From Azolla caroliniana (taxonomy: Eukaryota; Plantae; Polypodiophyta), in assembly GCA_043228905.1 (NCBI GenBank), contig JBHGNT010000008.1, positions 17,670,001-17,734,000 on the forward strand: a DNA stretch of 64,000 nucleotides, written 5' to 3'. The notes below the pieces were generated by a model, which saw only the letters and a program-made list of their open reading frames with translations, did not search any database and was not told the DNA's origin. A program made the position numbers and the translations under genes. Each line of letters starts with the position of its first letter. Position 1 is the stretch's first letter. Of this stretch, positions 8,399 to 58,715 are shown one piece after another.

Positions 8399-8665
8399 GA
8401 TCAAAACACAAACTCATGGAGCAAAATGGGCACAAATAAGATATATTACTATGACAGAAAAGATTACAGAACACAGCCTATGGCCGGTGACCTTACAAGT
8501 TTATCTAGTTATGATGGACTAAGCTAGTGCTTCCGCCTATATTTTTCTTCTCTCCCTCTCTGAGGTACTGGTCCTCGTTTAAATAACTTTTCCCCTAATA
8601 CACAACCGAGCCGTCGGTGGCCTGTGATACTCGGACTCAGCGTTTGCTAATTCCCTCATTTTACA
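8399..8665 (-). repeat. Second, partial copy of the gypsy LTR (matches 6312-6569), host of the copia insertion
   Basis: About 260-bp direct repeat with scattered substitutions. Confidence 0.85.
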
Positions 8666-12280: not shown

Positions 12281-15200
12281 AAGAAGGCAACATAAGGAGT
12301 TTTTATCATGAAGAGAAAAATTGTGCAGAAAAATGGAGAAGAAACCCTAGCCCTAAGAGTCCTTTATTTAATTATGATGGGTTTTGGTACAATTGAAAGA
12401 ATGACAAAACACATTTATTCTCAAGAATATACATATATATCACAACAGAAGAGACAACAAAGATCGCTTATGGTACACAAGGAGGCCAAGATCTGCCTGA
12501 TTGATACAACTTTAATCATTCTTAATAGTCTACCTCAAGATGGGCGAAATATATCCACTAAACCAATCTTGTCACACAATCTAGAAAGACTTACTGGCCC
12601 AAGTCCCGTTGCAAGATATTCGACTACGTGATCTTCAGAAGAAAGATTACTCAATTTTAATATTCCTGTATCAAGTTTCTCCTTGATAAAGAATCTGTCA
12701 ATTTCGATGTGCTTGGTCCTATCATGCCGTACCAGATTGTTGGCAATGCTGATTGCTGACTTATTGTCACACAACAGCTTCATCTGACTGTCTTGATTCA
12801 TTGTTAGTTCTATTAGGAGAGTTCTCAGCCAGAACATCTCCGCAATTTCTACAGCAATAACTCTATACTCTGCTTCTGCAGTGGGCCTTGCTACTACCAA
12901 CTGTTTCCTACTATTCCAAGAGACCAGATTGCCCCCAACAAACATTCAGTATCCTGATGTGGATTTCCTAACATCAGCACAACTAGCCCAATCAGAATTG
13001 CAATAGCCCTCAATTTTATAATGACCTTATTTATTAAAGATCAATCCCTTCCCCAATGCACCTTTGAGATATCTCAGAATCTAGTATACTGCATCCATAT
13101 TATGTTTCCTTGTATCCTACATGTAGCGACTTACCACACTAACTGCAAATGAAATATCTGGACAAGTGTGAGTCACAAATAAATCAGCTGACCTACCAAT
13201 CTCTGATACCTTTCACGATCAACTTTCTCTCCTGCAAGTACAGTTAACTTGACCTTTGGGTCAATTAGAGAAGCTACAGGCCTCCAACCCAACATTTCCC
13301 ATTTCTGTGAGAAGATCTCATACATATTTTCGCTGAGATAGAACAAATCCTGCCCCACGAGCTACCTCAATTCCAAGAAAGTATCGTAGCAAACCAACAT
13401 TCACCTCAAGCTCTTCACCCAGTTCCACCTTCAGTTGAGTATTATCTCCTTCATCGTTACCCGTGGTAATTATATTATCAAAATACACAAGTAATGTAGT
13501 ATGCTCCTTGTGTTGGTGGAAACACAAGGAGCAAACCAACATTCACCTCAAACTCTTCACCCAGTTCCACCTTCAGTTGAGTATTATCTCCATCGTTACC
13601 TGTGGTAATTATATTATCAAAATACACAAGTAATGTAGTATGCTAGTTGTGTTGGTGGAAACACACAATATGGCCCGCATTGATCTGCCGGTATCCCATA
13701 CCCACCATAGCCCTTCTTATCCTGTTGAACGAGACTCGAAGAGATTGCTTGAGTCCATAAAGAGATTTCCTAAGTCTGCAAACCTTGCCTACTGTTTGAA
13801 TTTTTCCAAACCCTGGGGGGATATCCATGTACACTTCATCAAATCTCCATGAAGGAATGCATTTTTACATCTAAATTAATATAAATTTCAATCCTTATTC
13901 ATTGCTATGAAAATAATCATTCTAACATTGCTCTTCCCACAGGTGCAAAAGTCTAATAACGATCTATTTTGACCTTTGAGGACTTTTATTGTAAACACCC
14001 ATTTGCACCAAACTGCCTTCTTTCTTGGTGGTAGTGACACGACAATCTCTCATGTTTTGTTCTTCTCAAGAGCTCCAAGCTCTTCTTGCATAGTTGCTTT
14101 TGACTTTGGATCTTCTTTAGCAACCTGTCAACACTTATAATGATGCAATGAATGCTCTATGTGTAGCTGATATGTTAGAACAATAGATAAACTGAGCAAC
14201 AACTCACATGGAGAATTCCACTTCAATACTCTACAGGGCATTCTATTGATCAATGAGGCAACTTGTCCCCACAACTGTTTTTTGACATTCATAGAAATCA
14301 TCATGCTTCTTGCTACCTCTAGAAAATGTTTGCTCTTCTGTCTCTGCTACTCTATTTTATACTGATATATATGGGCATGTAGTTTGATGTTGTATTCCTT
14401 GATCTGACAAGCATTCCCTAAACATCATGGTAGTATACTATGTTCCATTATCGAACCTCAACACCTACTGCTCTATGAAAATCTTTAAAGCAAGCAAATA
14501 CTTCATTCTTATTTTTCATCAAATATAACCAAGTAACATGACAAAAGTAGTGAGTGAAAGAGATAAAATATCTATATCCATGAATAGAACTTGTGGAACA
14601 CGTCCCCTATCATCAAAGTGTATTATATAAGAAGTAGGAGAACTTTTGAACTAACATAGTAGTTTGGTCTGGCAAACCAGCTTCATATGGCCACCTACAC
14701 ATCTTTGGGTGTGACACTTTTGTGCGTCTAAGGCATGAGTTGAGAAGCAAGTAAGATGCAATGTCCATGAGGGGAATAGTTATGGGCTATAGAGATTAAG
14801 GCAAAATGGGCTACAAGATTTGGTTAATATGTCCCTGAGATGTTGTATTTAATGAAGCAAGTCTGCTCAAAAATCATTGTGCCTCTTTAAGTCTGACTGT
14901 AGAAGAGTCAAATTTTAACCCTAATATGAACCCTCAGGGTGCACCATGATTGGTTGGAAATCATAATGAGCCAAATGATCTTGAGCAGGAAAATGACGCT
15001 CCTAATGGGCATATGCAGCTTACGTATTCATGCTGAAAACAGGGCTGGAAATGATTTACAGCAGCCCATTAACTGTGAAGATGGCAATGTCCCTTCTGAT
15101 GTAGATCAATTGCTGAATAATGTGGATCTACACATCCTAGGAGGCAAGTGAGTAGATATGACCCCTCTATACATTACATCATGATATCAGATGAGGGTGA

Positions 15201-18200
15201 GTGTCTTACTTATAAAGAGGCAAAACTATGTGAGCACAAGAAGTGGGAGTTAACCATGCAGGAAGAGAAACGCCGGGCATGAAAATGATACTTGGGGTTT
15301 GATTGAGTTGACCAAAGGTACGAAAGTCATTCCAAAAAAGTGGGTATACAAAATCAAAACTGCTGATGGCAAACCGAAGTATAAGGCAAGGCTGGTTTCC
15401 AAGGGATATGCCAAAAAAGAGGGTATTGATTTCCAAGAAGTTTACTCTCCCATGATTAAGACGACCACACAGCCGCCTTGGATTTGGAAGTATTCCAAAT
15501 GGATGTTAAAATAGCCTTTTTGCATGGTGATTTAGACAAAGAGTTGTACATGAAACAGCTAAATGGATATGCCATTCCTGGAAAAGAGCATCTGGTATGC
15601 AGGCTGAAATGGAGCTTATATGGGCTAACATAGGCACCCATGCAATGGTATATGAAGTTTGATGCATTTATCCTCAAACATGGGTTCAAAAGAGGACTTA
15701 GGGTTTAGGGATGAACACCAAAAAGGATGAAGATGGCAGCCCAAGTATTCTAGTACTGTATGAAGATGATATACTGCTGGCAGCCAAAAGGATATGCCAT
15801 TCCTGGAAAAGAGCATTTGGCATGCAGGCAGAAAAGGAGCTTATATGGGCTAAAATAGGCCCCCATGCAATGGTATATGAAGTTCAATGCATTTATACTC
15901 AAACATGGGTTCAAAAAAGGGCTTAGGGTTTAGGGATGAACACCAAAAAGGATGAAGATGGCAGCCCAATTATTCTAGTACTGTATGAGATGATATGCTG
16001 CTGGCAGTGAAGAAAAAGAGCACTCTGAATGCTCTAAAACAGCAGCGGAACTCTGTATTCTCAACGAAACACCTTGGATACACTGAGCATATGCTTGATA
16101 TGCGAATAAAAAGGGATAGGCAGCAGTGTACTTTGCATTTATCCCAGGAAATTGTTGGGGAAGCACATAACAATAAAACAATTCCACACGGAAGTCAACA
16201 AATTGTTTCCTCACTTGTCTTGTAAAATATAAGATTGTAATCAAACCAAACTAATCTGTGCAGCACTTCAGCAAGAAATTCCACACCCCAACACTAACAA
16301 ACCAATGATCACGGAGACGTGAGATTTACATGGAAAACCCTGATGTGGGGAAAAACCATGGAACCGTTCACAACGGCACCAAAACTCCACTAATCATCAA
16401 TAATCCAGTGGGCACAACAAGTTTTCATCTCTAGTTCAAAACTAGAGACTTTACAATCTTCAAGGTAAGTCCAATAATATATGGAGATAGAGAGATCGAA
16501 ACAATAATCCAACCGTTGGATTTGAAGAAGAGAGTGTCAAAAACAACTCACTAAATTCTGGTGAAGATCGGAGGTCGCTTGGTCATCGATCAGGGCTGGA
16601 ATAGTAGCTGGTTACTCTATCTTCTTTCTCTCTATATACTTTCTTGCTGCGTATTCTTTTTAGTATATTTCTAATAAACAGAAATAGTAATAATAAGGGT
16701 TATGTTTCTAAAAAAACCCTTATTACCCCTGCTAAGAACTTATAAGTGGAAACCTTGTAAAGGCCCTTTTCATACTAATTTGGACTCATTACAACATACA
16801 CATCCACATACTACTGTGGGTAAACAAAACATAGATCCAATTAATTATTTAGACCTCTTCATCCATGTAGGAGGGAACAACCCAACAGAAATGTACATTG
16901 AAAAAGTGTTGGACAGATTTAATGTGGCTGATGTGAGTGCCACTGTTATCCACTAGGGTTTTGCACCCATTAGTGACTGTGTAGACAATGTATTACAGAG
17001 CAATGAACACAGAACACAGATTATGGCAAACTATTCCAATCATGGAGAGATCAGAAAAACATGGTCTCTGTTATCATCACAACAGATGGTTCTGTTCGAA
17101 AGGGTGAACAGTCAAACCCATTTCAAAGGCGGTTATGAGAATATACTAATAATATATGAAAATACTATCTTTAACACTACCTTATGCAGCTCATGGGATA
17201 CATGAATATGTCCATATATGAGGACCTGATGATGAATCAATATAGATAGATATGTCCATATATGAGAGCCTGATGATGAATCCATCCTCCAACGTGAGTA
17301 AAAGTGTCTCTCATAGTGGGCAATGTTCTTATCAAGAGATTTCGGGCTGAGTGGAGTTATTTTGTTTTGCAACTTGATAATATCAAGTCGGCTCACTCTT
17401 TTATTTTCCATTTTGCTCATGTTTGGATGAGAACAATCCAACCTATATTAGAACGGATGTAATGCGAAGCAATCGTTCATGTCATTCAATATTCTACAAC
17501 TAGACTTACATCTTTAGACCCTTTGTAACAACCTGGTAGTCTGTGGATCTTTATAATCAATTGCTAACTTTGGAATAAAAAGATCTCAAAACAAGCCATT
17601 ATAAAAAAACATTTGTTCATTATACCTCTTGTCTATGAAATATGCCTGCTGCAAGTGCAGCTGAAGCACCTGTGCTAAGAAATACTTCAGAAAAATGCTT
17701 CTGCGAACCAGCACCACTGCTAGCAATCACAGGTATCCCCACAGCATTCGAGATAAGGTCAACAAGCTCCAGATCAAACCCGCGTCCTTGTCCTTCATGG
17801 AAACAGGAGTTAATAAACAAGTAACTTAGAATATTTAATATGCACAAGGCTTGTTTATAAGGGTGGCCAATTAGGTAATAGTTCACTCCATGCAGACTTT
17901 ATGTTTCCTGTTTTGGGCAGCTACAAACTTCATCCTTACTCAGGTTCTCACAATAATACATGTATATGTAGATGAAAGTAGTCAATATGATTAAAGATGA
18001 TGGCGGATTAGGAGTGAGCTTGAAAATTCACTTCCTTAAAACATTGACTGTGGATTTTCAAATTTAGGATTCCTCAATTAGTGTTAATGATTTCAGCAAG
18101 AGAAATATTACATGTATTATATGTCGATAACAGAGATTCATTACCATCACAATCAATACAATTTAGAAGTATTTCACCAGCACCAAGCTCCTCTACTGCT

Positions 18201-21200
18201 TGAGCAAGTTCATATGCTCCAATTGACCGACCTTCACGCCCTCCATTCACCTGCAGAAATATACCACACGGATATGATTGAGAGAGACGTCTTAAATGAG
18301 CAAATGTGCATGCAATTAAAATATATATGAAAAACATATACCGTGCATTGATACCACACGTACTCCTCTCCATTTGGACCTAAATAAACATTAGAATGAT
18401 TATTCTTGACAACATTAAGCAAACAGGAATAGAACAATGACATACCTGGGTCACGCACTTTAATAGTTTTGAAAGGAATTTCTTCAGGGGAAGGCACATA
18501 TACACGTCGGGGGTCAATGCTAACCACTACAGCCTAGCAAGAAAACTTAAATATTTTCAAGATAACGTCATACGAAATTTACATTATTTAGAACGTTGAA
18601 TAGATACTAGCCTGATTTCCATATACGTATGATATTTGCTCTAAGCTGCTCCTCCCTGACTTCAACTGAGAAAAACAGAATTAATTAGTACGATATAACA
18701 GTTTCCACTTAGATGAAAACCACCCAATCGTACACATAAAGATTCTTCCTTACCCATACACATACACATGTTTAACTTTGTTCTATTCCAGGTATAAAAA
18801 TTGAGATTCAATGAATGATTCTATTGAGAATGATTAAAGTTATAGCCAAACGGCTAGCCAGCCCCAAAAGCTAGTTTGCCTAACGGATAGATCTTGGCCT
18901 TCTCCTCATGTAACATAAGCGATCCCTGTGTTTTCTCTCTCCTGTTGTGACATATATGTATATTCTTGAGAATAAATGTGTTTTCTCATTTTTACAATTT
19001 GGTATCAAAGCCTAGATCTGCACCTCTGCCAAACCCTCGCCCCACCCCTCTCCTAGTGCAACAGCAGTCAGAACAGCACCGTCCTAGCATCCAGAGAAGA
19101 TGGCAGTGTTATGTGATTGAGAGATGACTTGAGAAAAGAAGTCAAAAGAGAAGAGAAGAGATATTCTAGGTTGAGAAGATGGATAAGGTTTTGTCAAAAT
19201 TAAACGAGGATGAGGTGAAAACATTGGTGAAATACATGAAGCAGGCTGACATTGTAACATCTAGAGGTGTGACAAGAACACAACCACCACCTAGACTTGA
19301 ACTCCTCCCAAGTGACTTCAAACTCGATCAAGGACAAGCCTTGATGGCTATCTAACGGGAAAAGAGAAAGAACCTCCTGTTAAAACAAGTAGTTAGTGGA
19401 AAGCATGGAGAGCTACCCACATGTCTTTGTATAGTTGGCTTCTCAACTCCATGGTTCCATTAGTTGCCACCACTATTGGTGGAATTCAAAATGTGAAGGA
19501 GATTTGGGAAAAATTACAAAAGAGCTATGCTGGGAGGGGAAATGAAGGCAGCACGAGGATTAGGGTTTAGGTCAAAAATAGAGAGGGAGAGAGTCTGAGT
19601 GAGAGACAAAGGGAGAGAGCGAGATGCACGTTGTCTTGGGTACAAAGAGTGTACCTCTTTTTTGGTTTTTAGATATTATGTATATACAAGTCAAAAGTGT
19701 GCTACGAGTGCATTCACACTCGTGCACTAATAAAAGGCACGATGGCCCTTTATTCCCAACAACCTCCCATCTAAAGACAATGTGCTGTGAGAAGAAAAAA
19801 AAAAGTCAGCTAAGTCCAAGTATGTACAAAGCTGAACTACATACATCTATACAACTCCCATCATCTGTCAGCAATGAGCAAATCGCTCAGCTGGAAGACC
19901 CTTCGTGAGAGGATCTGCAGGATTATTATTTGTATGTACTTTGACAAGCTCAATGTTCTTGCTGTCAAGTACATCTCTGATGAAGTGATACTTCACCTCT
20001 ATGTGCTTCGTCTTTGCATGAAAGATAGGATTCCGAGCTAGCATGATAGCACTCTGGCTGTCACAATGAAGAATAGGTAACTTTGTAATGCCAAGATCTC
20101 TCACTAGATATGAAAGCCATAAAGCCTCTTTGCATGCCTCAGTGGCAGCAACATACTCTGCCTCTGTAGTAGACAATGCAACACACTTTTGTAGGCTGGA
20201 GATCCAAGAGACCGCTCCTCCTATGCAAGTAAACACATACCCAGAAGTAGACTTTCTGCAGTCGGCGTGACCAGCATAGTCTGCATCCGTAAAACCAATG
20301 ACAGATGCCTTTTGCTTTCCAAAGCAAATACACAAGTCCTTTGTGCCTTTGAGGTATCTCATAATACCTTTCATCGCTTCCCAATGCTTTTTGCCGGGAT
20401 TTGCCATGTACCTACTAACCACTCCCACTGCAAAGGCAATATCAGGGCGTGTAGCAACCATCGCATATATCAAACTGCCAACGGTTGAAGCATATGGAAC
20501 CTTAGCCATTTCAGCCTTCTCATAATCAGATGTAGGGGTGTCTTCTACACTGAGTTTCAAATATGGAGGCAATGGGACCCCAATTGTTTTCGCCCCCTCC
20601 ATATTGAAACGCTGCAAAACCTTAGAGATTTACTCCTGCTGAGATAGAAACAGTACCCCTTTCGATCGGTTTCAGAGTATTCGCATGCCCAGGATGTGAT
20701 TTGCATCACCAAGATCCTTCATATCAAAGCTGCCATGAAGGCTTTGCTTCAATGAATCCAAGGCATGAATATCCTTGCCAGCAATCAACATATCATCAAC
20801 ATACAAAACCAAGATAATCAGGTTGCCATCTCCTGCCTTCTTGGTGTACAAGCAGTGGTCCACTTGACTTATACGAAAACCTTGAGACTGCATAAAAGCA
20901 TCAAATTTATGATACCATTCTCTTGGTGCTTGTTTCAACACATACAAACTCCTTTTGAGCTTACAAACCATCTTCTCTTTGCCTTTAGCCACAAAACCTT
21001 CAGGCTGCTGCATATATATGTCTTCATGCAGATCACCATGTAAAAAGGCAGTCTTCACATCCATCTGTATGAGCTCCATATCTTCGGATGCAACTAAGCC
21101 CAAAATGATTCTTAATGTAGTCATCTTGACTACATGCGAGAAGATCTCATCAAAATCAACTCCATATTCCTGCTTGTATCCTTTTGCAACCAATCTTGCT

Positions 21201-24200
21201 TTGTACTTTGGCAAGGAATCAGAAATGACCTTCATTTTATAAACCCATTTGCATGGAAGTGTTTTCTGCCCTTTAGGAACCTGCACCAAATCCCAAGTGT
21301 CATTTTTCTCAAGAGATTCCATCTCTGACAACATGGCTTTATACCATTTCTTGGTGTCCTGTCTGTCCATTGCTTCCTTGAAGCAAGACGGTTCGCCACA
21401 ATCAGTCACCATGACATAATCGTCCACACTGTTTGCATCAGGAACAAATCTGTCAGGCTGTCTAGTATCTCTAGACGATCTCCTAACCCAATGCTCATTG
21501 TTTGGTAGCTGTTGAGCCTGCAAATCATCATTTTCAATTTGCAGTCCAGGCATTTCAGCCTGCAAATCAGCATTCACAGCTTGCTGTTCTAGCTGTTCCT
21601 GCACATTTGGTGGCTGATCATTATTGGCAAAGGCTGGCTGATCATTTCCAACCTCATTTTCTGCATTTGCAGGTAAGTTTACAGCAGGTGTTTGCCGCTG
21701 TACAGCGGGCACATTTTTCTGTCTAAAAGGTATTTCTTCTCGGAATACAACCCTCCGTACTTCCTCGGTCTTTTCGGGTTGTTTATGCATGCAATTTTCC
21801 CGGAAGATGACATCATTGCTGCGTACTATTTTTCTTTTCTCGGGATCCCACAATCTATACCCCATTTCACCCTCGTCACTATATCCTAGGAAAATACATT
21901 TGCAGGACTTTGGCTCAAGTTTGTTGCGTTCTTCTTTACGAATGTGCACAAAAGCCTCACAGCCAAACACTCTCAAGTGAGCATATGAAGGTGGCTTGCC
22001 CGACCACGCTTCTTGGGGTATTCCCCCTCCCAAAGACCTGTCAGGTGACCGATTAATCAAGTGAACAACTGTCATAACAGCCTCTGCCCAAAAACCATGG
22101 GGTAACGCAGCATGAGACAACATAGTACGGACCTTATCTTGAATGGTCCGATTCATACGCTCTGCAACTCCATTATTCCGAGGCACCTATAATAACCGAG
22201 GCATTGTTCTGATCAGTGACATTTATCCAACGTCTTTGGGAGCTACCTAAACAAAGGTACCACTTATGTCATCAAGACAACTGGCTGAAAATGGAGACAC
22301 TCATTGTTGGTATGGTGAAACACAGCTATGGTTCGAGTCACATGGCATGAGTATAAATGCACTACCGCCGTTCCAATATAGCTTGGACTGTCCCCGCCTA
22401 AATATGACCAAAGTGGAAAAGAATATAGTGATCCGGACTGATATTATTAACTTGGAAAACAAGATAACTTGGATCAGCCCCAAAATACCACTAGGTACAA
22501 AGATGGCCCACTATAAAACGCACTTCTTACATACATCCGAGGATGGATTCGTCATCAGGCCACCTTATATGGACAAACATCTATCCTATGCGCTGCTTAG
22601 TGTGATAGGGCAGCTAAGAACTCAGCTACAGATTGAGGTAGGCAGATATACACGACTACCTCTAGAAGAGAGAATTTGCCAATTGTGTCATCAAGGAGTG
22701 GAATCTGAGGAACACTATGTTTGTCATTGTAGTGTCTTTTATGAAATCAGAGGGAGATACCGTTGCCTCTTTAACAAGGCTTTGGCCCACTACGAAAGGT
22801 AATGGAATATGAGGACCAACGATGCCTAAGACTTTTCTTGCTAGAGCTCAAGAGACATCGGGAAAAGTTGTTGTAGAATACAGCCACACAAGCTCATCCA
22901 CAAAGAACAATCACAACTTTCTTTAGCCCCATCACTCCTACTAATCCTACAAGTCCATCACGGGATACACAAATGGGCTCCAGACCAGGACATAACAAAG
23001 GGGTTACAATTGATCGGGCAATAGCAATTTGCCGTGCACGTAGGCCCCGCCTCCATGGACCACGACCTCGACACCCTTGTCATCTACATATAAAAGCCAT
23101 TATCTCCCACCATCGTAGGTGCTTCCCTTGCTTTGGAGACATTTCCATTTTGGATCAATCTATACTAGAGATCTTTCGAAGACAAAAGCTACAATATACC
23201 TAACTTGAGAATCTCACATGTGCCAAAAACCAGATTCCCTTGTTTTCTTCTCTTTTCATCTTATTTACTTTTATATTTACTGTGTAGTATTTATTTTATT
23301 TTGATTTGTTCTCAAAGACGATACAACACTCAAGATGTAATCTCTTATTTGGTCTTATAGGCCATTTTGGCCTCTTAAAAGACGTTAATATATCTTTCTT
23401 TCTTCTTTCTTTCTCCCGTTCTGACATATATGTATATCCTTGAGAATAAATGTGTTTTCTCATTTTTTGAATTGATTCTACCTATGAAAATTTATCCAAA
23501 ATCGATCATATCCTTTTCAAGGAATTTCTAATGAACTAAAGATGTTGTATTAAAGGTGGTTTGTATCTCAATTTTCCACTAAGCTTATTTTGAGTTTTAT
23601 TTCTATCTTTTAGCATTCTACATTCTTGCATTATCCAAGTACATTTTATCTGCTGTTTCGGGCTCTTAATTTTTTTAAGTCATGGAAACTCTATTCTTGT
23701 GTGCTCATGAGATTTATTTTTCTTGTACTAACAACTTTTTGATGTTCTGGAAAAGAAAAGCACTCAGTCTTTGCTTTTGTGCTAGGCTCATTTGCATGGC
23801 CTATTCCCTTCTCCAAGAGTTTTCTACCTCATAAGACTTGAACTAGCTTTCCGTTGACTCACTAGCAAACTATGCCTTGTCCATGTCCAATTCGTCGAAA
23901 ACTCAGTAGCTATTGATGGGTTTGTCCAACTCTACCTCATTCAGACTAATATCACCCCAATAAAAAACAAACCAAGTTACTTATATATGTGATGTATCAC
24001 AGCAAATAATTTTCTACTGAACCTATGTACATAGCTTTGCGTGATTTAACCAAATGTAGTCTGATATAGAAAATCAATCTTTGTAAATTAATTTATCTCA
24101 GAAAGGATGAAAGAGGATCCTACAGGCAGGTCTTGTAAATATGAAAATGAATGCATTTTGCGGAAACTAAATTCTAATCTTTTGTAAGGCAAGGCATCTA

Positions 24201-27200
24201 ATGACCAAGATAAAACATAGATTCGTAGCTTTGAATTTGCTACCAGTTTCCAAAGGGTTTCACTAAAGACTGTTTAGGGCAGTGAATCAAGAAGAGCAAA
24301 AAAATGCAGCCTTTGTCTCAGAAACTGCATTTACCAAAAGTCCTTACTGGCATATTGATAGAACTAGGTGCCATTTAAGAAATTTGTGAATTCATACCCC
24401 AGTCTTTAGGTACTCTTCTGCAGCATAAACAGCATCACTTCCAATAGATATCTTGTCTGCACCAGATCTGAAGTATTCAGCCGCAACTTCAAGACTCGAG
24501 TATATCCTATGAGTCATGAAAAGTGCAAATTAAACATAAAAATAGTACTAAACATAGGAGATTTAATGTACATGCACCAAATTGAAAAATGTGGACGACA
24601 TTGATCAAACTATTGAAATTGCAGTGAAGAGACAACCATATAGTTGGGTTAGCATCCTCTGTTTATGAGTGAGCCATCCTTGTAATAGTTGGTGCTCTAT
24701 GCAGAAGAAGGCATGTTTTCAAAATATCTTAATAAGTGAAAACTGAAAGTGCTGCTCTTAGTCAAATGACTTTTCTTACACACAAAGTCTAAGGTGCCAT
24801 AATCATTCTCAATGCAAAAATAGCATTATAAAGGGAAAATATCAATATGAACCATCCTAGTAGAGATTATGCTTTTCTAAAATTATTACCTCATGTCCTC
24901 AGAAAATATACTCTGTATAGCTACATACAATCAATACAAACCTTCCATTCCTTTAATACAATTCTATAGCACTAACCGTGCTAGCATTTTAGGTGTCCCC
25001 AAACCTTTTCCCATAGCATTTCATTACAGTTATATAACCCTCTTTTCTTTGATCCAGATTCATAGTTCTTTGGTGGCACACACTATTTTCATTTAACCAT
25101 GGACTGGTATCCAAATTGCAGATCAGTCACACAAATGCTTTACTTGTCCATGCAAACTCAGATTATGCATTGTAGAATTTCCCTAGACATGCACAACTGA
25201 TTCAATGGAAGGTTTGTAGATTGGTTTTATCCTACTAGTACTAGTATTCACTTGCATGCCAGAGGAGAATTATGCATCAGAACCAACATCATCAATACTG
25301 AAGTACAGTAACCATTTTCATTCACAAGTCTGTATTACTGACTTAGACACACATGCCTGAAATTCTGCATAGCTCCATGAAAAAATAACATTATAAACGG
25401 AAAATATCAGTATTACCCCTACTGTTAGAGACTTTTGGATATCTAAAAGTACAATAATGTCCTTCACAAACATGTGCTTGAACTTGCGAATACACACCTT
25501 CCATCCTTGTCTTTAAAGTCGCGAATACCTCCTCCTACAGTTAATGGAACAAAAACTTTTTCTGATGTACGTTGAAGCACCTACAAAAGGTTGAAATAAC
25601 TAACATCAGTTGAAAGATAGACAAGATGTTAATTCATTGAACATTTTAGTGCATAGCACTCACCTCAAGCATCGGCATATCTGCTAAAGGAAAATCTCGG
25701 AAACCTGTAATATTCAAAAATGCCACCTGCCATGAGAATAACCTCCAGTAAGTTTTACATAGATATGCATGTGTGTCAGAATGTAATAAACTCTCACCAA
25801 CAAATCAAGTTGATTTTCACATGATAGTAGTAGGCATAATATATAGATTATTTTACATAAAAAAAGAGCAAGATTTTATTTATACAGATAAGAGGTGAGT
25901 GCATATTGATGTTAGCTATATGTGTATATATGTGTGCAGATAAAGTGTGATTATTTGATGATTATATATTGGCAAGTATTGTTTTTTTACTTAGACAAGC
26001 ACAACATATTTCAAGTGAAGCTGGACAAAGTGACAACGGCAGAATTTACATCTCCATTCATAAACCTTGAAGATTTATCTTGCAAGTGGTACTGAAATGA
26101 AGATTCTCTACATGCCCAAATGGTCTATCTATCATTTATGGCGGCTATTAGCCATAAAAAATTGCAAAATAACTCATTTAATCAAATAAATATATTGAAG
26201 CACATGAATATGGATGTTCTCCCACCAATTGAGTATAGCCTTGATTGTATATATACTGATGATAAGCAATAAGATAAACAAAATAAAGAAAACAATGGAT
26301 TAAGGGCACTTAACCACACTAACCACCCCAAAGCAGAGGACAAGGGAAGATAAAAAAGTTTATTAGCGTCCCATACCGCCAAAATGGCCTTATGGTATAG
26401 AAGTCAACCGATTGAAAATCAAAATACAAGATTTTTATTCAGAGATAGAGTTCCAATCACATCTACAAGATGCCATGTCAAAGGAGGTGGCAGATACTCT
26501 TTACTTAGCAGAACATTATAGACTTCAAGACCTCCATGTGTTCCCACATGTTGCAGATCTTCATGGGTTTGTCTCAAGTTCTAGGATAACTAGTTTCACA
26601 CTAATTCTACTCTAAAAATTAACCTTCAGAATAGATTCATAAGGCAATGACCATAAAAACTACCCAACTTTGGATTTAACAGACATCGTAGAGAAATAAA
26701 CAGATAAGAAGCTAAGCACAAAACAAACTTGCAGCAATCCAAAAGTGCCACCATGTCTACCCCCTTGCCCTCACAACATTAAGGTTTTATAGGCACAGTC
26801 AAGGACATCTTTAAATGTCCTTATGACACTGTTGGTCATAAATAGAAGTTTAATACAGTATGTAAGGACACATGTTTCAGAATCTTGATTTGTATGAATT
26901 TATATAGGCAAGAACACCAATTCAAGCTGTAATATGATAATACGCATAATACATCAAGAGATATTCTATAATTGTGACATTGAGAAGTTGCTTTTTGTAT
27001 GAGGAACGTGACAATATCAAGAACAATGAAAAGGTCTTGGTGACATGATCCTGGAGTACTATTGATTCCTCAATGTGGAGTTGTGGTTTGGAGTTATAGA
27101 CTCTGGACATTTAGAATTTCTAAGTACCTTGGAAATTTTAGTAATTCAGTCTGTTCTTCTCAAATTTTAGTATTGTCCTTTATAGTGAGTTTTGAACCTG

Positions 27201-30200
27201 ACCTAAAAACACACAAGATGAAGCATCCAGAGCAAATCTGAAGCCTAGCATCCATTACACAAGGAACCAGCAAGTAGTTTACGTTTAAGCTTCTTTCGCT
27301 CACTATGTAAAAGAGAATAATTTCTCTTCATGAATACACCCATTCACCCCATGGTAAGTGCAATAAAAACTAATGCATCAGGAAAGTGGAATGATCTCAA
27401 AACATGACGAATCAAAGCAATTTGGTTCTAGAACTTGAGTAAGGTCATAGATATAACACATTATTAACGCTTAAAAAATGATTGTTCAAGACGTATATTC
27501 TATGTTCAACTATTAAGGAAATAGGTGGCACCTCATCTGCACCTTCATCATAATATCGGCTAGCCAGTTCCACTGGCTTACCAAGATTCCGAACCTGCAC
27601 CATAAAGCATTAATCAAAAAACCTTCATGAGCAGCATCAAGCTGGAGAAGATTCTGTAACTACAAAACTAAGTGTCTTCAACTGAATACCAATATTCACT
27701 CATGTGAAGCAAATACCTCAACTTGCTTTAGAGCTAAGAAAGTAATCATGTTCAATAAATAAGAAAATCATCGAAGTATCCTAATAATTGTTTGTTGGTA
27801 TGTATTGGTTTACACATGGTACGTGAAAATTTCCATTCTACCTTCTAAAATGACTTGTATTTCTTTTAGGTTCTAATAGGAGATGTGAGAGAGCATATGC
27901 AAGAAGAAGGCATAGAGGTGCTGCACTAAAGAGTATGCTACAGTGTTGCAGTACATGCTATTGAACTCATTCAGAATTATTATATTGGACATGATGAGGT
28001 TTTTACTGCAGAGTAGGTGGCTTTCTGACTCTTAAAGATTAGAGTGTTTTTGAGGGTTGTATGTCCAGCTATAATAACTATTACATTGAATATGGATTAC
28101 CACAATTGTCATGAAATGTTCATGTGCTTTTTGAACTTACTGGTAATACTCACCTGTGAGAAACATTCCTGGAAGAGTGTGGAGCAAAACAAAGACGAAT
28201 GCAGGAATATTTTTCATATCCACATACAAAGACAAATAATTAAGCTTTGTGATGCACATTCTTTATGAATAATTAACTTTGATGATGAGTACACGTTATC
28301 AATGGGAAGGAAGAAAAGAAAGAAAGATAGAGGCCAAAGTGAGCTATAACACCAAACCTCAATCACATGACTACCATCATTAATTGAAGTAACCCCTCAA
28401 TCACTATTGGCGCAAAACCCATCTTCCCCAGATTATATCCTAGGCACACATGCGTTGCTACTTATAATGTGGGTGATTCCCAAATTTCTGTTACATTCAC
28501 AAAAACTTGTTACTAGTGTATAACACCACCACAAAAACTTAGTGTCAGTAGCGTAAAACACATTAATGTAAAGATCCTCCTGGTTACATTTTCCCCTGGA
28601 AAATAACTACGAATTACCAAAGAAAACAGATTAACACCATATTCTCAACCTTCATGTCATCTAAAAGCTATTGATCTCATATATTACTACTGTTTAGCAT
28701 ATGATACAAACCAGTCTCCTTATGACATATGAACAAACTTACATAGGCTACATTGAAACTTTAGAACATCCACATGCAAAGGAAAACATTAGAATTTGAG
28801 AACAGTAATGCAGTGTTGTTTAGAGTAGCTAAAGAAAGTGTACCTCCCGTTTGCCACTTTTGTCTCGCACATCATATTGATCACCTTTAGTGACAACAAG
28901 ATCTCCTTTTTCATTCGATCTCACATCAAGACATGCAATTACCTAGAAGGAATATGTCCTCATTCTCATACGTTTTCAAGCAAATGCAAAATGAATAAAT
29001 ATTCAGAATCTAAAAAGAAAATAGAAAAAATCATCAAGCATACCCTTTTCGCAAGCCTAGACATGCTTCCAAATGAATGAATCGACTCCACTTCCACCTA
29101 ATTCATACAAATCATTAAAGGGGGCATTTTCAACGAAGTCCAGGAAAATCCAGTAACAATAAGCTGAATATCATAAGAAGCAAGACGAAACATTCTCGAT
29201 TATTACATCTATCTTCAGTTAAATTCTTATTACAAGAGACATGACCATGATATCATTGTTCACCATCCTTGCATATATAGCTGTAACAAAAGGGAGTGGG
29301 AGTAATAAAAATATTTCTGAACTAGATGATATGAGAACTAAATTTATCTTCAGTTCAATTCCTCTTCCAATGCACGCGGCCTTGTCTTCACTACGGAGTA
29401 GAAACATGGGGACAGAGTCCTGACAAGGAAAATAAATAGAAAGACTCAGAGAGGCTGTTAGTCTCAATGATAGCCGATATGGAGCAGAGCATGGGTGCCC
29501 CATAATATAATCTGGGCAGGTATGGGCCAATCATCATTGAGACATTATTCCAATGAGTGCAACAGCTTTTTGGAGCTCCCTAAACGAAGGTACGAAAATT
29601 TGGGTCTATGTCAACAACTTGCTGAACATGGAGATATTCACTGCTGGTATGCTGAAACACAGCAATGGCATAAGCATAAAATGCATTACCCCCATTCCAA
29701 TATAGTGCAAAATGATAAATTGCGATGACAATTTTGGCAAAACCATTCGCAATGCTGTTAACTAGTTATTTTCAACTTTGAGGGTTGCGGTGTATCTAAG
29801 AACCTTCTTCTTAAGCCGGATAGGCATTTTATTCCACGAACATTTAAATGTTGTCCCGGTGCCTAGATGTACAGCAGAATTGTATAAAAGCTTAAAATAT
29901 TTGCTTTTCATAAGTTTGCATTGAATACATATTTTACATACCTCCTCTATAGCTGATTGATCCCCTTCCAAAAACCGCTGAAGTATACCCATTCCCACGA
30001 CTGCATGAAATCATTAAAAATGTAAAAATAGTACAATTTCTCTACAATACATGTACCAAATAACCTACCCTTTCAGTTTATGGATGTCGAAAATGCTTGT
30101 GTGCCATGCAACTATAATTGGAATAGTCACTCTTACCTGCACATTTGTTGGGTGGCAAAAACATTCACACAAGCCTCTAGAGTTTCATGGAACTTGGAAA

Positions 30201-33200
30201 GCCATCTTGTTTGTTATCATATCAACGTTTACAATATTAGGCACCATTCTTGTTTCACCTCTTTTAATCTGTCCAATTCCTATTTGTTATTCCATCTTTT
30301 CGTGGTCAAATCGTTCGCCCAACCTTTCCAGAAAATGTTATATGAGAAAGTACCTCCCCCTTTCTCCAAATGGAACTAAGCAACGACATTTTCTTTTTTT
30401 ACCACAGCAACGAACTCACAACCAGAGTTACAAGTTGCCAATACATGATCATTGGTGACTGACAAGTTCAATGTAGTAAAGAATATTACACATACATGCA
30501 GTTGTGAATCTAAGATAGGGAAACTAAAATGAACCAGGTTTATTTCAATGTGTCTTTCTAGCAATTTCACCATGAGTTCAACATGGCCCACTAAGACAAT
30601 TATGTATGAAGAAACTTCGAGCACCTCTTATCTTGAGGTTGACCATTTTGTCAATAGGCAATAATTATTAGGCTACCTTCAACACACAAAAAAGGGCTCT
30701 CTGCTTCCTAAGAAATTAAGTTGAAATAATCAGGCATTGGGGGATTTTGTTTAGACAGCTAAGTTTCCTTCAGAGCTATTTCATTTTTTTATGCAAATGC
30801 CAGAATTTTATCATGGAATACAGTCAAAACCATAATTTACCAACTGCCTTGACAAAAAGTTAGGTTTCTTCAGAAAAATAGGGTTTTCAACATCTAAGAG
30901 CATCAGAATTTTGGAATGACATGTTATCCACTTCCATTGAGGAGTATAATACAGTTTTTAGTCCACAAAAATATTCGTCGACCCATGGCTTAAACTAAAA
31001 TTGGGGGTTACTCTCCTAGCCTTAGGATCCAATCAACATGCAACGAGGCATACTCAGTCTAAGATACGAATATCTCCCTATCCCTCTAGTATGTCTCTAG
31101 CCTTAAATAAAAGTGCAATAGTCCCAGGTATTTCATCTTGAAGTCAAACTATGACCGTGAAATGGTTCATCCCTGATTGTCTTTTATGGTGCTTGTGAGA
31201 ACCAAATCATCCACATACAATTGAAGGATTGATATCACTTACCTTTTATTTGGACCTAGACTGCAACATCTCCTTAACATTTAAATCTGGACATTGTGAG
31301 GAATTCGTTAATATTGCCTTAGCAAGCTATTGGTGCCTCCTTTAGCCTATGTAGCGATTTTTGCAGCCTCTGGTCAATGTTTTTTGAACCAAGTAGCCCA
31401 AAACTAATGGTCGTTCCATATAAATACCTCCTCCTTGAGATAGCCATTTACAAATGTAGATTTAATCTCGACACAGTTCGTTGCCTCGTTCCAAGCCTTG
31501 CAATCAAGGCAAAAGATTCCTCAAATTCCACTTGTTTCATGAACACATCAATCTTGTCTTTAGTTTTTCAAAACCATTTTGAGCCATAAACTTTCATATA
31601 TGGTCGATCCACTAAGTGTCAAGTTTAAAATACCCTCCAACTCAAAACACCATATCCACTATCAACAAAAAATCTTAAATTTACTCTCCCACAAAGCTCG
31701 GCTCCTACACATCCACAAGGATCATTGCCATAAGTGCTAAGTTGACAACTGGTCTCTTTCATGTTGTGCATGATTTCCTAGAATTCCTAAACAGATGTAT
31801 ATGCTTCCTAAACAGAGTGGGGGAAGTACCTAAAATGGCTAGCATATTCCTTCTTCCACATTTAAAGTGTTATTGTCCTTGCTTGCACTCTTCACTTAGC
31901 CAACTAAACACGTCTTAGTAGAAGGAAAATGATGCTTTTCATAACGAGATCCTTCGTAATGATACCACATCGAATTTGCGCAAGAGCTAAGGTTCACAAC
32001 ATATCTTCTTATATCAATATCCTGATTTCAATAATGTTGTTTAGTTACGAGCAGCTTGATATGAGCAAGGCCACAACATGAGGCAATTACCTATATTATC
32101 GTAGCTTGACACACCATACCACATCTACAAGTTCTGTGTCAAATCTCTCCTATCAAATGGGGACTTATACATCCAACATAATGCTCTATGTGACATATCA
32201 ACATTTCACAGCCTTTACTCTTAGAAACAATTCATATCCAAATCTGGTTCCCAATTCCATAAAGAGATCAAAGGAGGCTATTAGAACTAGATCCCACCAA
32301 TATCTACACAATAAACTTTTTTAATTATATGCATACATACACACGTACATATATATAGGCATCTTTCCTACAAGACGTATGAAAAAACATTTTGATTGTC
32401 TAAATGTTTCATTAAGTTGCGTAATTAATCATAGAAAAACATGCCGAGGTATATTATATTGATGAAATATCAAGAAAATACCATATATGATGCCTCAACC
32501 CAATATCATACTCAACAAGTTCTCAGATCATACATTTGTCATATTACTTATTTTTTATCACCAAATACTTTGAAGAGGAAAGGAATTACTATATCTGGTC
32601 TATTTTTACGAAATTACTTATGACAGAACATGACCTATACATATGGCAGATTCTGAAAAATCTCCCACATTTCCTCCACTGAAGAAATTGTTTAGTCAAG
32701 GGGAGATACTTGAAAATAATATCTCTCAAGTCCACAGGTAACTCAACCCTAAACCCTACCAGAACAAAGATAATTTCTTTCTAACTTTCTTCTGTTCACT
32801 GCAAAAGGTTATGAGTTCCAATAGCATGGGTTCCCATGGCTAATATTAGCCTCATACACATTAGATACCATAATTATTAATGAGCAATCCTGTATGTCAT
32901 TAGGTATCCCCATGAGTTAGTTCCGTCATTGAGCATTCTATACACAATTCTCGCCTCCTTATCATGGATCTCTTTCTTTTTGGAAAGAAAAGATAGTACA
33001 CTATTCCCGTCATGTACACATGCCAAGTTGCACATTTGGCAAGTGCAAAGAATATTCACATTGGTTTCTATAGACTACCGAACTTAGGCATCCATTTTGC
33101 TTGCTATCATATCAACATCTACTGTATTTTAATACATAACACTGATGTCCATCATTTCGTCTCTCTGTAGATGCAAGATACTCCAATCTTCTCACAACAT

Positions 33201-34735
33201 GGTGTTTGAGCAATTACCTCCACTTTTCTCTGGATGGAACTGAACAGCATGCACGTTTCCCTTTTTTACTGCGGCAATGAACTCATCACCATGGTAGCAT
33301 GTTGCAAGTTGCCATTCTCTATTAGCTGGAGACTGAAATATATAAAATTTATAGTGAACATTACACATGCATGCAATAAGTGAATTTAATATAAGAAAAC
33401 TGTATTTAGACTGATCTTACTGGTATTGCCCGATAAGAATGAACGAAATATAGATGCTGTCCATGTACTTCATTCAACAGTTTTGAGGGTCTCTTTATAT
33501 TCAACCGGTTCCAACCAATGTGAGGAACTTTAACCATTTCAGATGACTCGAACTTCCTAACAACTCCAGATATGAGGCCAAGCCCTTCAACTGCAAAAGC
33601 TTTAATTTTCAGTATCAGAAAATATATACACATTTGGACTAGTAACCATAACAGCATAGAGGTAACATATTCTTTACCATTGCCTTTCTCTTCACTGCTT
33701 TCGAAAAGAAGTTGCAAACCAAGGCATATACCCAGAAAATGCTTATCTTGCAGAATATAATCACGCAAAGCATCTGCCAACCTACCAGGCAGACTCTTCT
33801 ACTTTACCACAAGATAAAAGCAGTTATTCCTGTCAATATATGATACATCTTCATAACGAAGCCTACCCTTGTTTTCGGATGGAGTCCATAGCAGTCCCAA
33901 ATGCTCCTACGCCAGGAAATATTAAGTGCTTCGCATTTTCTATGTCCCTGGCACATTTCACCTGGTCAAATATTCACATGTGAGTACAACAAAAAAGACT
34001 CAATAATGATGAAACTGTTCATGAGCATACAGAATCAGTACGAGAGCGAAAGATCATAGGCAATCTACATCAAACATGAGTATTTTTACATAAGTAAATA
34101 TATTGGGCAATTTACTATTTCATTAGGTCTTCAATCAGCTATCCCATGCTGAATTACTCATGAAAACGATTAAAATCTACTGAAATGCAAGTGGAAAACA
34201 TATGTAACCTCCTTTATTTGATAGCCAAGGTGATGAATAGCATTCCGAATGCTGCGAACATTTCCAGCTCCATAATCCAACAAAGATACCACTGAATATG
34301 AAGAAAAGATCACAAAGAGAAGCTCAATCAATCAAAGAAATCAACAAGAACTTACGTATATCGGGCTGAGTAGGTATTCTAAAAATAACATCAAGAACTG
34401 ATCAAATAGGACCAGGGAGAAAGATAAATAAGAAATAGAAAGACGATCAAAGAAAATCTAGACGTACCGAAGTAGTGAAGGAAGGAAGGAGGAAAAAGGA
34501 AGCATCACCTTTCGTTTCTTGTGAAGAAACGATGCTTCCATGCTGAAGATGAGAGCATCTTGGCACCAAGAACCTTCTACTACTTCTACATTCGCTGCTT
34601 CCTCTGGAATTCAGAAGCAGCGGAGCATTAAATGATTTATCAGAGATTAGTCCAAACACCTGCGAATTCAAAAGATTGTGAGTTTCAAAAGGAGAAGAAG
34701 GAGCAGGATTCAGCGTAGAGAATTAGCTGTACCAT
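12106..34735 (-). CDS. HISN4: Imidazole glycerol phosphate synthase HisHF (glutaminase + cyclase), plastid-targeted, 20 coding exons, about 596 aa
   Basis: Exons in transcript order: 34733-34735 (ATG only), 34509-34659, 34209-34291, 33867-33961, 33678-33781, 33421-33590, 33218-33332, 29942-30000, 29044-29097, 28844-28942, 27532-27594, 25664-25726, 25498-25580, 24398-24506, 18612-18665, 18446-18533, 18342-18379, 18145-18250, 17626-17792, 12106-12192. Total 1791 nt with consistent phases. Introns are GT-AG except one GC-AG. Motifs: [28 protein letters not shown] (catalytic Cys), [82 protein letters not shown]. The Ser/Arg-rich N-terminus resembles a transit peptide. Confidence 0.95.
12394..14690 (-). 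mobile_element. Degenerate Ty1/copia (IN-RT-RNaseH + short 3' LTR at about 12394-12526) in HisHF intron 19
   Basis: [11 protein letters not shown]...[17 protein letters not shown]; [19 protein letters not shown]; about 140-bp tandem duplication 13388-13665; LTR homologous to 18823-18997. Confidence 0.88.
14700..16950 (+). mobile_element. Degenerate Ty1/copia IN/RT fragment in intron 19
   Basis: [25 protein letters not shown]; FLHGDL; about 225-bp tandem duplication 15565-16007. Confidence 0.85.
16153..16887. mobile_element. Solo LTR
   Basis: TGTTGGG...CCCAACA termini with 5-bp TSD GAAAT on both sides; splits the host RT motif [14 protein letters not shown]. Confidence 0.88.
18823..19560 (+). 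mobile_element. Copia 5' LTR (about 175 bp) + PBS + gag remnant in intron 14; a partial LTR copy recurs at about 23412-23470
   Basis: PBS TGGTATCAAAGC at about 19000; LTR text shared with 12394-12526 and 23412-23470. Confidence 0.75.
19570..22186 (-). mobile_element. Ty1/copia 3' half (IN C-term, RT, RNase H, PPT, LTR) in intron 14
   Basis: ORFs 20672-22186 ([27 protein letters not shown]) and 19868-20617 ([24 protein letters not shown]); PPT AGATGGGAGG followed by TGTTGGGAAT at about 19762. Confidence 0.92.
22187..23413 (+). mobile_element. 5'-truncated non-LTR retrotransposon, L2/CR1/RTEX-like C-terminus, (TCTT)n-like tail
   Basis: [38 protein letters not shown] motif; related fragment at about 29280-29700. 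Confidence 0.7.
27870..27929 (+). pseudogene. Antisense copy of the HisHF terminal exon inside intron 10 ([19 protein letters not shown])
   Basis: ttcttttag|GTTCTAATAGGAGAT...CACTAA matches exon 20 (12106-12192, minus) in reverse complement, together with about 85 bp of the last intron and the downstream 3' region. Confidence 0.9.
29280..29700 (+). mobile_element. LINE fragment of the same family as 22187-23413, in intron 8
   Basis: YGVETWG-like motif; [19 protein letters not shown] matches [19 protein letters not shown]. Confidence 0.7.
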
Positions 34736-53715: not shown

Positions 53716-53750
53716 ATAAATAAATATATAAATATATGTATTTACAAGGA

Positions 53751-53820
53751 GGGCAAGTAAGGATTCAAACCTTGCACCTCCGAGTTAGGAGTCAATTGGC
53801 TTACCATTAAGCCATACCAT
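53751..53820 (-). ncRNA. tRNA-like Pol III module in the gypsy LTR (second copy 60677-60746)
   Basis: TGGCTTAATGGTAAGCCA (A box/D arm) ... AAGG TTTGAAT CCTT (B box/T arm); no acceptor stem. Confidence 0.6.
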
Positions 53821-58631: not shown

Positions 58632-58715
58632 GACCAGGACACGCAAACCCTCCACGCCTTCAACGACAACGAGTACGAAGGAGAGCGGTTACTCATCGGT
58701 AGATTCCTAAGAACA

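What the first reader, a model, noticed from the sequence alone, without database searches (positions are those of the whole stretch)
27782..28843. Intron 10 contains the antisense of the gene's own last exon, splice acceptor and 3' UTR
Seen: 27782-28843 is the reverse complement of about 11245-12280. That covers the last about 85 nt of intron 19 (including the AG acceptor), exon 20 and the downstream region. Inference: an unspliced pre-mRNA could form several hundred bp of intramolecular dsRNA closing a 15.5-kb loop, and the excised intron would be an antisense RNA to the mature 3' end. Possible consequences are masking of the terminal acceptor or poly(A) site, DCL-derived siRNAs and RdDM, or back-splicing of exons 11-19 into a circRNA, since flanking complementary introns are an established driver of circularisation.
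Basis: partly seen in the sequence, partly recalled or inferred. Interest (0 to 1): 0.72.

Follow-up and report, generated by a model that had tools for sequence, protein, structure and literature searches.

The report
Gene threaded through its inverted duplicate
A plant histidine-synthesis gene carries a backwards copy of its last exon inside intron 10, as one end of a 3.3-kb inverted duplication that is likely an old DNA-repair relic; the unspliced RNA is predicted to pair with itself there, but the public transcripts examined are spliced normally.

Summary
The match is real but larger than reported. 27782-33488 and 8938-12280 form a 3.3-kb inverted repeat (94% identical) around exons 11-19 of an intact 20-exon HisHF gene. 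The intron-10 arm supplies working exons 6-10 and a dead antisense exon 20. The 3' arm supplies the working exon 20 and dead antisense exons 6, 7, 9 and 10. Only about 360 of the 1,062 nt flagged are antisense to the gene's 3' end; the rest is likely native intron 10. That piece is predicted to pair strongly (-540 kcal/mol). However, 4 of 4 transcript runs splice intron 10 out and join exon 19 to exon 20. The arms' differences lack a CG/CHG mutation excess, and two related organisms carry an exon-20 copy missing 201 of the 357 pairable bases. Best reading: a repair or gene-conversion relic with a latent hairpin. siRNA, methylation and back-splicing could not be tested directly. An exon 11-19 circle would be a stop-free 257-codon frame. 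The scan noted similar antisense exon copies in animal genes (VAX2, slit, SMAD2) but not this sequence. Interest 0.27.

The parts
11918..34735 (-). Host gene, 20 coding exons, open 596-codon frame: plant bifunctional imidazole-glycerol-phosphate synthase (HisHF), GATase plus His_biosynth domains; 3' end approximate
   Evidence: exons, open frame; PF00117 on exon 7, E 8.8e-5; PF00977 on exons 19 and 13; splice joints
27782..33488 (.). Arm B of the inverted repeat: working exons 6 (3' part) to 10, their introns, and the antisense exon-20 piece
8938..12280 (.). Arm A: intron-19 tail, working exon 20, 3' UTR, then inverted dead copies of intron 10 (5' part) and exons 10, 9, 7, 6
27782..28144 (+). 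Antisense piece in intron 10: copy of the last 88 nt of intron 19, exon 20 (5 nt shorter than the expressed copy) and the 3' UTR; right edge approximate (28059-28219)
   Evidence: expressed exon 20 is the arm-A type
28145..28843 (-). Likely native 5' part of intron 10 (T/G-rich on the gene's sense strand like the other introns)
   Evidence: inferred from composition
27595..27781 (-). Unduplicated 3' part of intron 10 (187 nt) with the exon-11 acceptor
   Evidence: a contig of run X2 bridges 27782
17626..27594 (-). Exons 11-19 (771 nt, 257 codons, phase 0 at both ends) in the single-copy middle between the arms; the hypothetical circle
12193..12280 (-). Intron-19 tail with pyrimidine tract and AG acceptor: the only part of intron 19 complementary to intron 10
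12106..12192 (-). Working exon 20 (coding part)
11918..12105 (-). 3' UTR as far as transcript contigs of run X15 reach
11149..11244 (+). Dead inverted copy of exon 10 (73% amino-acid identity, one codon lost)
11005..11060 (+). Dead inverted copy of exon 9 (acceptor AG and donor lost)
10835..10840 (.). Deletion scar in arm A: 2252 nt of arm B (29266-31517, with exon 8) are missing, 4-nt microhomology
   Evidence: same joint in runs X2 and X4
8938..9209 (+). Dead inverted copies of exon 6 (3' 68 nt) and exon 7 (1-nt frameshift)

Best explanation
The antisense exon 20 in intron 10 is one end of a 3.3-kb inverted duplication that brackets exons 11-19 of a normally spliced HisHF gene, and it is likely a DNA-repair relic whose predicted RNA duplex rarely forms. 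Layout (shown): L a b' M b a' R, with a = exons 6-10 plus the start of intron 10, b = intron-19 tail, exon 20 and 3' UTR, M = exons 11-19. Both arms carry the same a|b' junction. Origin (inferred): an inversion-type break joined intron 10 to the gene's 3' end once; a broken end then invaded the opposite arm and copied through that junction, so the repeat grew to hold both a and b; later conversion refreshed the outer part. RNA (inferred): intron 10 is usually removed before polymerase reaches its partner 15.5 kb downstream, so the duplex would form only in the minority of molecules that keep intron 10, or between a lingering lariat and the mRNA end. The dead copies decay by deletion and substitution.
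For: One junction in both arms, not a lone insertion. Dead exon copies in arm A and a 5-nt loss in the intron-10 exon 20. Intron 10 skipped (1249 nt) and exon 19 joined to exon 20 in 4 of 4 transcript runs from 4 studies; the expressed exon 20 and UTR match arm A (18 differences and 6 gap letters against arm B, where arm A has 17 and 6). No CG/CHG excess among arm differences in the flagged stretch (13 of 81, against 17 of 45 in the outer arm, p 0.009, and 25 of 44 in LTR pairs, p 4e-6). CHG observed/expected is 0.83-1.07, as in other introns (0.68-1.15), against 0.26 upstream of the gene. Non-coding divergence in the pairable piece (20 of 274) is not lower than in the neighbouring part (58 of 667; p 0.52). 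A copy in organisms C and D lacks 27938-28422, that is 201 of the 357 pairable nt. The locus holds other decayed self-copies: exon 7 at 67%, exon 18 at 72-77%.
Against: The duplex is very stable if both arms coexist (-540 kcal/mol; 59 of 343 21-nt windows perfectly paired). The arrangement has lasted across at least two organisms and probably four. A 92-nt exact run sits over the junction and 3' end (60 of 5000 shuffles). Run X20 has low-depth arm-A-type contigs beyond the main 3' end (5 of 7 listed variants arm-A type) and more depth at 27279-27865 than exon 11 explains (95 vs 68). Contigs drop rare forms and cannot show nascent RNA. The mutation spectrum is an indirect, long-term proxy. That the deleted copy in C and D is the intron-10 one is inferred. 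The order of the origin events is not resolved: no repeat-free relative was seen.
Confidence: 0.66

Rival explanations
1. A working endogenous inverted-repeat silencing source. Transcripts that keep intron 10, or that read past the poly(A) site into the inverted intron-10 copy, fold back. Dicer cuts the 360-1000-bp stem, and the small RNAs trim HisHF mRNA or methylate the arms. A variant: a duplicated HisHF promoter drives antisense RNA through arm A.
For: 257 of 275 nt of exon 20 plus UTR pair in a fold of the intron-10-retaining transcript, loop 1046 nt. Arabidopsis read-through is about 160 nt at the median and 521 nt at the longest (PMC8613925, passages), which would lengthen the stem. A minority read-through class feeds PAI1-PAI4 methylation (PMC3203196, passages). 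Low-depth arm-A-type contigs in X20, and joints linking the 3' UTR region to intron 2 in X6 and X20, hint at rearranged copies near a promoter copy.
Against: No methylation-type mutation bias or CHG depletion in the pairable part. Spliced mRNA in 4 of 4 runs. No promoter or exon 1-5 copy behind arm A in this window. Mismatches in hairpin transgenes reduce self-methylation (PMC9263138, passages).
Confidence: 0.17
2. A circRNA driver. The 88-nt complement in intron 10 pairs with the intron-19 tail, hides the exon-20 acceptor, and favours back-splicing of the exon-19 donor to the exon-11 acceptor, giving a 771-nt circle.
For: 80 Watson-Crick pairs, -113 kcal/mol, covering the pyrimidine tract and AG. 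The element lies 187 nt from the exon-11 acceptor. 30-40 nt suffice in animals, and plant expression constructs use such arms (PMC9860190, passages). The circle is in frame with no stop. The 88-nt part is kept even in the deleted copy of C and D.
Against: The partner lies 5345 nt from the exon-19 donor, and intron 10 must survive transcription of 15.5 kb. Few natural plant circRNAs have such flanks (46 of 6074 in rice, 1 of 5152 in Arabidopsis; PMC9860190, passages). The forward exon 19-20 joint is present in 4 of 4 runs, in X17, X18 and X20 at about the depth of upstream joints.
Confidence: 0.1
3. RNA-templated origin (a rival for origin only). A cDNA of a transcript that still held intron 19 was primed at the poly(A) tail and inserted backwards in intron 10; the larger arm was copied afterwards.
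For: The inferred junction (about 28144) falls next to the transcript end (28137-28139).
Against: No A-run longer than 4 near the junction and no convincing target-site duplication (two 7-mers, not flush with the ends). The junction interval is 160 nt wide. The piece includes intron sequence.
Confidence: 0.06
4. Assembly artefact.
For: Parts of the outer arms are identical over up to 291 nt.
Against: The inner arms differ by 7-10%. Another sample (X2) has two contigs over 28637-29196, with 5 and 51 differences, bridges 27782, and shows the arm-A deletion joint, as does organism B.
Confidence: 0.01

Closest known systems
PAI1-PAI4 inverted repeat of Arabidopsis Ws (PMC3203196, passages read); endoIR-siRNA loci (PMC10827316, passages read)
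   Same: An amino-acid biosynthesis gene with an inverted copy of its own sequence behind its 3' end; a minority of transcripts could fold back.
   Different: PAI1-PAI4 is two whole genes tail to tail with a short centre and proven siRNA and methylation. Here the arms are partial, 15.5 kb apart, each supplies working exons, and the mature mRNA holds no partner for its 3' end unless intron 10 is kept. siRNA and methylation are untested and the mutation footprint is absent.
Partial inverted duplication origin of MIR genes, MEPIDAS (bioRxiv 10.1101/682591; abstract and section 19 read)
   Same: Partial inverted duplication of exons with flanking intron at the gene's own locus.
   Different: [quoted passage not shown] No such transcript or miRNA is shown here, and Rfam has no match in 8500-35500.
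Exonic circRNAs driven by reverse-complementary flanking introns (PMC9860190, passages read)
   Same: Complementary sequence in introns 10 and 19 flanks exons 11-19.
   Different: The complement is gene-derived and covers the downstream acceptor itself. It lies 5.3 kb from the donor. No back-splice has been seen.
Repair-mediated duplications by SDSA (PMC2671141, passages read); FOLT rearranged copies (PMC5257005, passages read)
   Same: A nearby piece of the same chromosome copied into a break, without a poly(A) tail; the 360-nt piece is in the size range.
   Different: Described in vertebrates with donors within 5 kb and lengths up to 619 bp. Here a junction was copied and the whole repeat is 3.3 kb, more like inverted-repeat expansion by one-sided invasion (recalled; search listing only).

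Membership tests
Plant bifunctional HisHF (host gene) | Class-I glutamine amidotransferase domain followed by a His_biosynth barrel in one frame | tested here: met
   3 of 6 single exons scanned matched Pfam: PF00117 on exon 7 (22.7 bits, cut-off 22.8), PF00977 on exon 19 (41.7) and exon 13 (19.9, under cut-off); one open frame. The name HisHF/HISN4 for this fusion is recalled.
Endogenous inverted-repeat siRNA locus (PAI1-PAI4 type) | Long gene-derived inverted repeat | tested here: met
   3327 columns, 193 mismatches
Endogenous inverted-repeat siRNA locus (PAI1-PAI4 type) | A transcript that holds both arms at once | tested here: inconclusive
   True of the unspliced gene by layout; contigs in 4 of 4 runs join across intron 10 and cannot show rare or nascent forms
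Endogenous inverted-repeat siRNA locus (PAI1-PAI4 type) | 21-24-nt siRNAs from the arms | not testable with these tools
   Only contigs of long RNA or DNA were offered
Endogenous inverted-repeat siRNA locus (PAI1-PAI4 type) | Dense non-CG methylation coextensive with the arms | tested here: inconclusive
   Indirect only: no CG/CHG mutation excess or CHG depletion in the flagged stretch, but an excess in the outer arm; no bisulfite data
circRNA driven by complementary flanking introns | Reverse-complementary sequence in both flanking introns | tested here: met
   88 nt, 80 Watson-Crick pairs, -113 kcal/mol
circRNA driven by complementary flanking introns | Back-splice junction in RNA | tested here: inconclusive
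   Only 15 of 122 joints were displayed and contigs drop rare forms
MIR gene by partial inverted duplication (MEPIDAS) | Partial inverted duplication of the target at its own locus | tested here: met
MIR gene by partial inverted duplication (MEPIDAS) | Antisense transcript folding into a stem-loop and yielding a precise miRNA | not testable with these tools
   Contigs give no strand; Rfam 0 matches
Repair-mediated duplication (Pace et al. 2009) | Donor within 5 kb of the acceptor | tested here: not met
   15,501 nt today; about 5 kb if most of introns 14 and 19 are later insertions, which is untested
Repair-mediated duplication (Pace et al. 2009) | No poly(A) tract; microhomology, filler or deletion at the breakpoints | tested here: inconclusive
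   No poly(A); the uninterrupted ancestral site is not available, so microhomology cannot be judged

The most novel reading that the evidence does not exclude
A gene-derived, splicing-gated hairpin. When intron 10 is kept, its antisense piece clamps the intron-19 acceptor, exon 20 and the 3' UTR, and diverts the transcript to Dicer or to back-splicing. The exon 11-19 circle is a stop-free 257-codon frame for most of the HisF barrel, open to rolling translation. A housekeeping gene would tune its own output through a decayed copy of its own end.
Probability: 0.08. Interest if true: 0.7.

Novelty: new variant of a known kind. Interest (0 to 1): 0.27.

Why it matters
If inert, it shows that an expressed plant gene can tolerate a 360-bp self-complement of its own acceptor and 3' end. 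It also carries a 3.3-kb repeat whose recombination would flip exons 11-19 and break the gene. That makes it a natural test of whether co-transcriptional splicing protects long-loop inverted repeats from RNA silencing, with arm-diagnostic variants and relatives that have lost part of the piece as controls. If active, it would be a self-regulating circRNA or siRNA source made from the gene's own last exon; my searches listed no such plant case, but they cover open-access text only.

Tried and rejected
No whole genome is held, so copy number elsewhere and a repeat-free paralogue could not be checked. No RNA holder is on record among the 22 runs listed; 'RNA' for X15, X17, X18 and X20 is the tool's guess, though their contigs join exons at the GT-AG sites. 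I laid 8 of the 22 runs. No back-splice joint among the 15 of 122 joints displayed: no evidence either way. Bin depths over intron 10 equal what exons alone give in X15, X17 and X18, but missing cover in contigs is not evidence of absence. X2's lower depth at 32374-33174 hints that its second copy lacks that part, but depth is no copy number. No comparison of the protein's C-terminus with named relatives was made; that the 5-nt-longer exon 20 is the expressed form rests. Searches for remnants of exons 1-5 or the promoter behind arm A found none in the window. Rfam: 0 matches. Earlier scan notes: none near, none by sequence. Paper searches: 'intragenic inverted repeat' with five other terms, 0 papers; nothing listed on a plant HisHF repeat. 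The paper I recall on HISN4 lethality is not held, so essentiality is recalled only. A simple inversion with staggered breaks was rejected by reasoning: it gives two different junctions, not one junction twice. No supplementary files were read.

Full report
1. Observation. A self-comparison of the window finds the flagged match and shows that it is part of something larger: 10836-12280 vs 29269-27782, 10626-10839 vs 31731-31518 and 8938-10625 vs 33488-31796, all inverted. One global alignment joins them into a single repeat: arm A 8938-12280, arm B 27782-33488, 3327 aligned columns, 193 mismatches. Arm B has 2.25 kb and 64 nt that arm A lacks. This is far beyond chance.

2. The gene. Twenty coding exons on the minus strand (34735 to 12106) give one open frame of 596 codons. 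Three of six single exons scanned match Pfam: GATase on exon 7 and His_biosynth on exons 13 and 19. That is the plant HisH-HisF fusion; the name, and its essentiality in Arabidopsis, are recalled (one search found no paper). No genome is held. Earlier AI notes call the genome likely a fern's; I did not test this.

3. Anatomy. Arm B holds working exons 6 (part) to 10 and, in intron 10, an antisense copy of the last 88 nt of intron 19, exon 20 and the 3' UTR. Arm A holds the working versions of those, followed by inverted, damaged copies: exon 10 (one codon lost, 73% identity), exon 9 (splice sites lost), exon 7 (frameshift) and part of exon 6; exon 8 is deleted with 4 nt of microhomology. Introns of this gene are T/G-rich on the sense strand. 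In intron 10 that bias holds from 28843 to about 28144 and then reverses (0.58 vs 0.42; 1 of 500 shuffles; interval 28059-28219). Arm A shows the same switch at 11912 (3 of 500). Transcript contigs of run X15 end at 28137 and 28139 in arm-B coordinates. So about 360 nt of the flagged 1,062 are antisense to the 3' end, and about 700 nt are likely native intron 10. The layout is L a b' M b a' R, with one junction present in both orientations.

4. Other samples. I laid 4 DNA runs (2 studies) and 4 presumed RNA runs (4 studies), of 22 listed; all are contigs. X2, another sample of the best-matching organism, bridges 27782 and has two contigs over 28637-29196 with 5 and 51 differences. X2 and X4 (organism B) show the arm-A deletion joint 29265>31518. 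X6 and X8 (organisms C, D) have contigs running from exon 20 across the junction to 28440-28452, and a further exon-20 copy with a 485-nt deletion, 27938-28422. That deletion removes 201 of the 357 pairable nt. The mRNA contig of organism C extends 82 nt into exon 20, past the deletion point at 66 nt, so the deleted copy is not the expressed one; that it is the intron-10 copy is inferred. The repeat is therefore real and at least as old as the split of A and B. The outer arms differ by only 2.7%, against 7-10% inside, close to the 2.1% between the window and X2 there. The second copy in X2 and X4 has a 45-nt exon-6 deletion that the window's arm A lacks. Both points suggest recent gene conversion of the outer arm (inferred).

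5. RNA. In 4 of 4 runs, contigs skip the 1249 nt of intron 10 and join exon 19 to exon 20 (15 of 122 joints displayed). The expressed exon 20 and UTR are of the arm-A type: 18 differences and 6 gap letters against arm B in X15, and 12 and 6 in X18, where arm A has 17 and 6, and 11 and 6. The exon 19-20 joint has about the depth of upstream joints in X17, X18 and X20. In X15 it is lower (26.6 vs 60), which flat contig depths cannot interpret. Against the relic reading, X20 has low-depth contigs of arm-A type beyond the main 3' end (depth 14-19 against 430-670) and unexplained depth at 27279-27865. Contigs show neither strand nor rare forms.

6. Could it pair, and does it leave a trace? The predicted duplex to the transcript end has 332 Watson-Crick pairs and -540 kcal/mol, and 59 of 343 21-nt windows are perfect. 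The intron-19 tail alone gives -113 kcal/mol. With intron 10 kept and the rest spliced, 257 of 275 nt of exon 20 and UTR pair across a 1046-nt loop. Unspliced, the loop is 15,501 nt. Long-standing methylation should enrich CG/CHG transitions among the arms' differences. They are 13 of 81 in the flagged stretch, 17 of 45 in the outer arm and 25 of 44 in three LTR comparisons (p 0.009 and 4e-6). CHG sites are not depleted (0.83-1.07, against 0.26 upstream). The pairable piece is not better conserved than its neighbour (20 of 274 vs 58 of 667). One result points the other way: a 92-nt exact run over the junction (60 of 5000 shuffles), though the outer arm shows the same patchiness (24 of 5000), as conversion would give.

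7. Mechanism. Shown: layout, damage, normal splicing, presence in other samples. Inferred: one inversion-type junction between intron 10 and the 3' end, then copying through it by one-sided invasion of the opposite arm. A simple staggered-break inversion gives two different junctions and does not fit. A retro-insertion is disfavoured by the lack of an A-tract or target duplication. Inferred too: intron 10 is normally gone before arm A is made (co-transcriptional splicing in plants is recalled; search listing only), so the hairpin is latent. The locus is prone to such copying: a decayed tandem copy of exon 7 lies in intron 7, and decayed exon-18 pieces lie upstream and at 62.6 kb. Recombination between the arms would invert exons 11-19 and break the gene; this is untested.

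8. Comparison. It works like a PAI1-PAI4-type repeat only for transcripts that keep intron 10 (PMC3203196, passages). Arabidopsis read-through of 160-520 nt (PMC8613925, passages) would lengthen the stem in such molecules. It meets the sequence condition for complement-driven circularisation, but natural plant circles seldom have such flanks (PMC9860190, passages), and the intron-19 partner is 5345 nt from the donor. The circle would be 771 nt with no stop in frame, a result of phase-0 boundaries that needs no selection. It shares the partial inverted duplication of MEPIDAS (10.1101/682591, abstract and section 19) without a shown antisense stem-loop. It resembles repair-mediated duplication (PMC2671141, passages) but fails the 5-kb criterion today. 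I also read passages of PMC9263138, PMC5257005 and PMC10827316. No supplements were read. The scan's notes on VAX2, slit and SMAD2 reached similar readings in animals; they are not independent evidence.

9. Verdict. The architecture, one gene drawing working exons from both arms of its own inverted duplicate, is an unusual variant of a known kind. Function is most likely nil (0.66), with siRNA (0.17) and circRNA (0.10) open and directly testable. Interest 0.27.

Noticed in passing
window 30138-30525 (-): Decayed tandem copy of intron 6, exon 7 and the start of intron 7 inside intron 7, 67-70% identical.
   Followed up: partly
window 62602-62784 (+), 63853-63933, 34944-35062 and 35296-35393 (-): Decayed copies of exon 18 and intron 18 (72-78%), two just upstream of the gene in its own orientation and one inverted 28 kb away.
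   Followed up: partly
window 28154-28168 (-) and its mirror 11888-11902 (+): A 15-nt stretch in intron 10 with a pyrimidine tract, AG and a strong GT donor, in frame between exons 10 and 11, inside the 92-nt exact run. Inclusion was not among the joints displayed.
   Followed up: partly
window 32493-33040: Presumed RNA runs X15 and X18 have contigs over the first part of intron 7: either early termination giving a glutaminase-only transcript, or transcription of the arm-A copy. Strand unknown.
   Followed up: no
window 27998 or 28150 joined to 34468; 33951-34703; 34146-34276: Runs X6 and X20 join the 3' UTR region to intron 2 through nearly the same linker. X20 has a 1163-nt contig that runs over exons 2-4 and folds back on 34116-34484. 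X2 and X4 hold another diverged exon-3 piece. Relatives seem to carry further rearranged copies of the 5' end; a short fold-back there would be a better small-RNA candidate than this finding.
   Followed up: no
window 18611: Intron 15 appears to begin with GC rather than GT; the 78-nt joint is in 4 of 4 transcript runs.
   Followed up: partly
window 12106-12192: The expressed exon 20 is 5 nt longer than the intron-10 copy and reads 9 residues further. X15 holds two versions of exon 20 with its UTR.
   Followed up: partly
window 52910-61210; 6312-8655; 19871-22186; 12450-13500: Retrotransposon-like elements: one with 97%-identical 1.3-kb terminal repeats and long ORFs, one with 257-bp terminal repeats beside arm A, and pol-like stretches in introns 14 and 19 (the labels are recalled from motifs, not scanned).
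   Followed up: no
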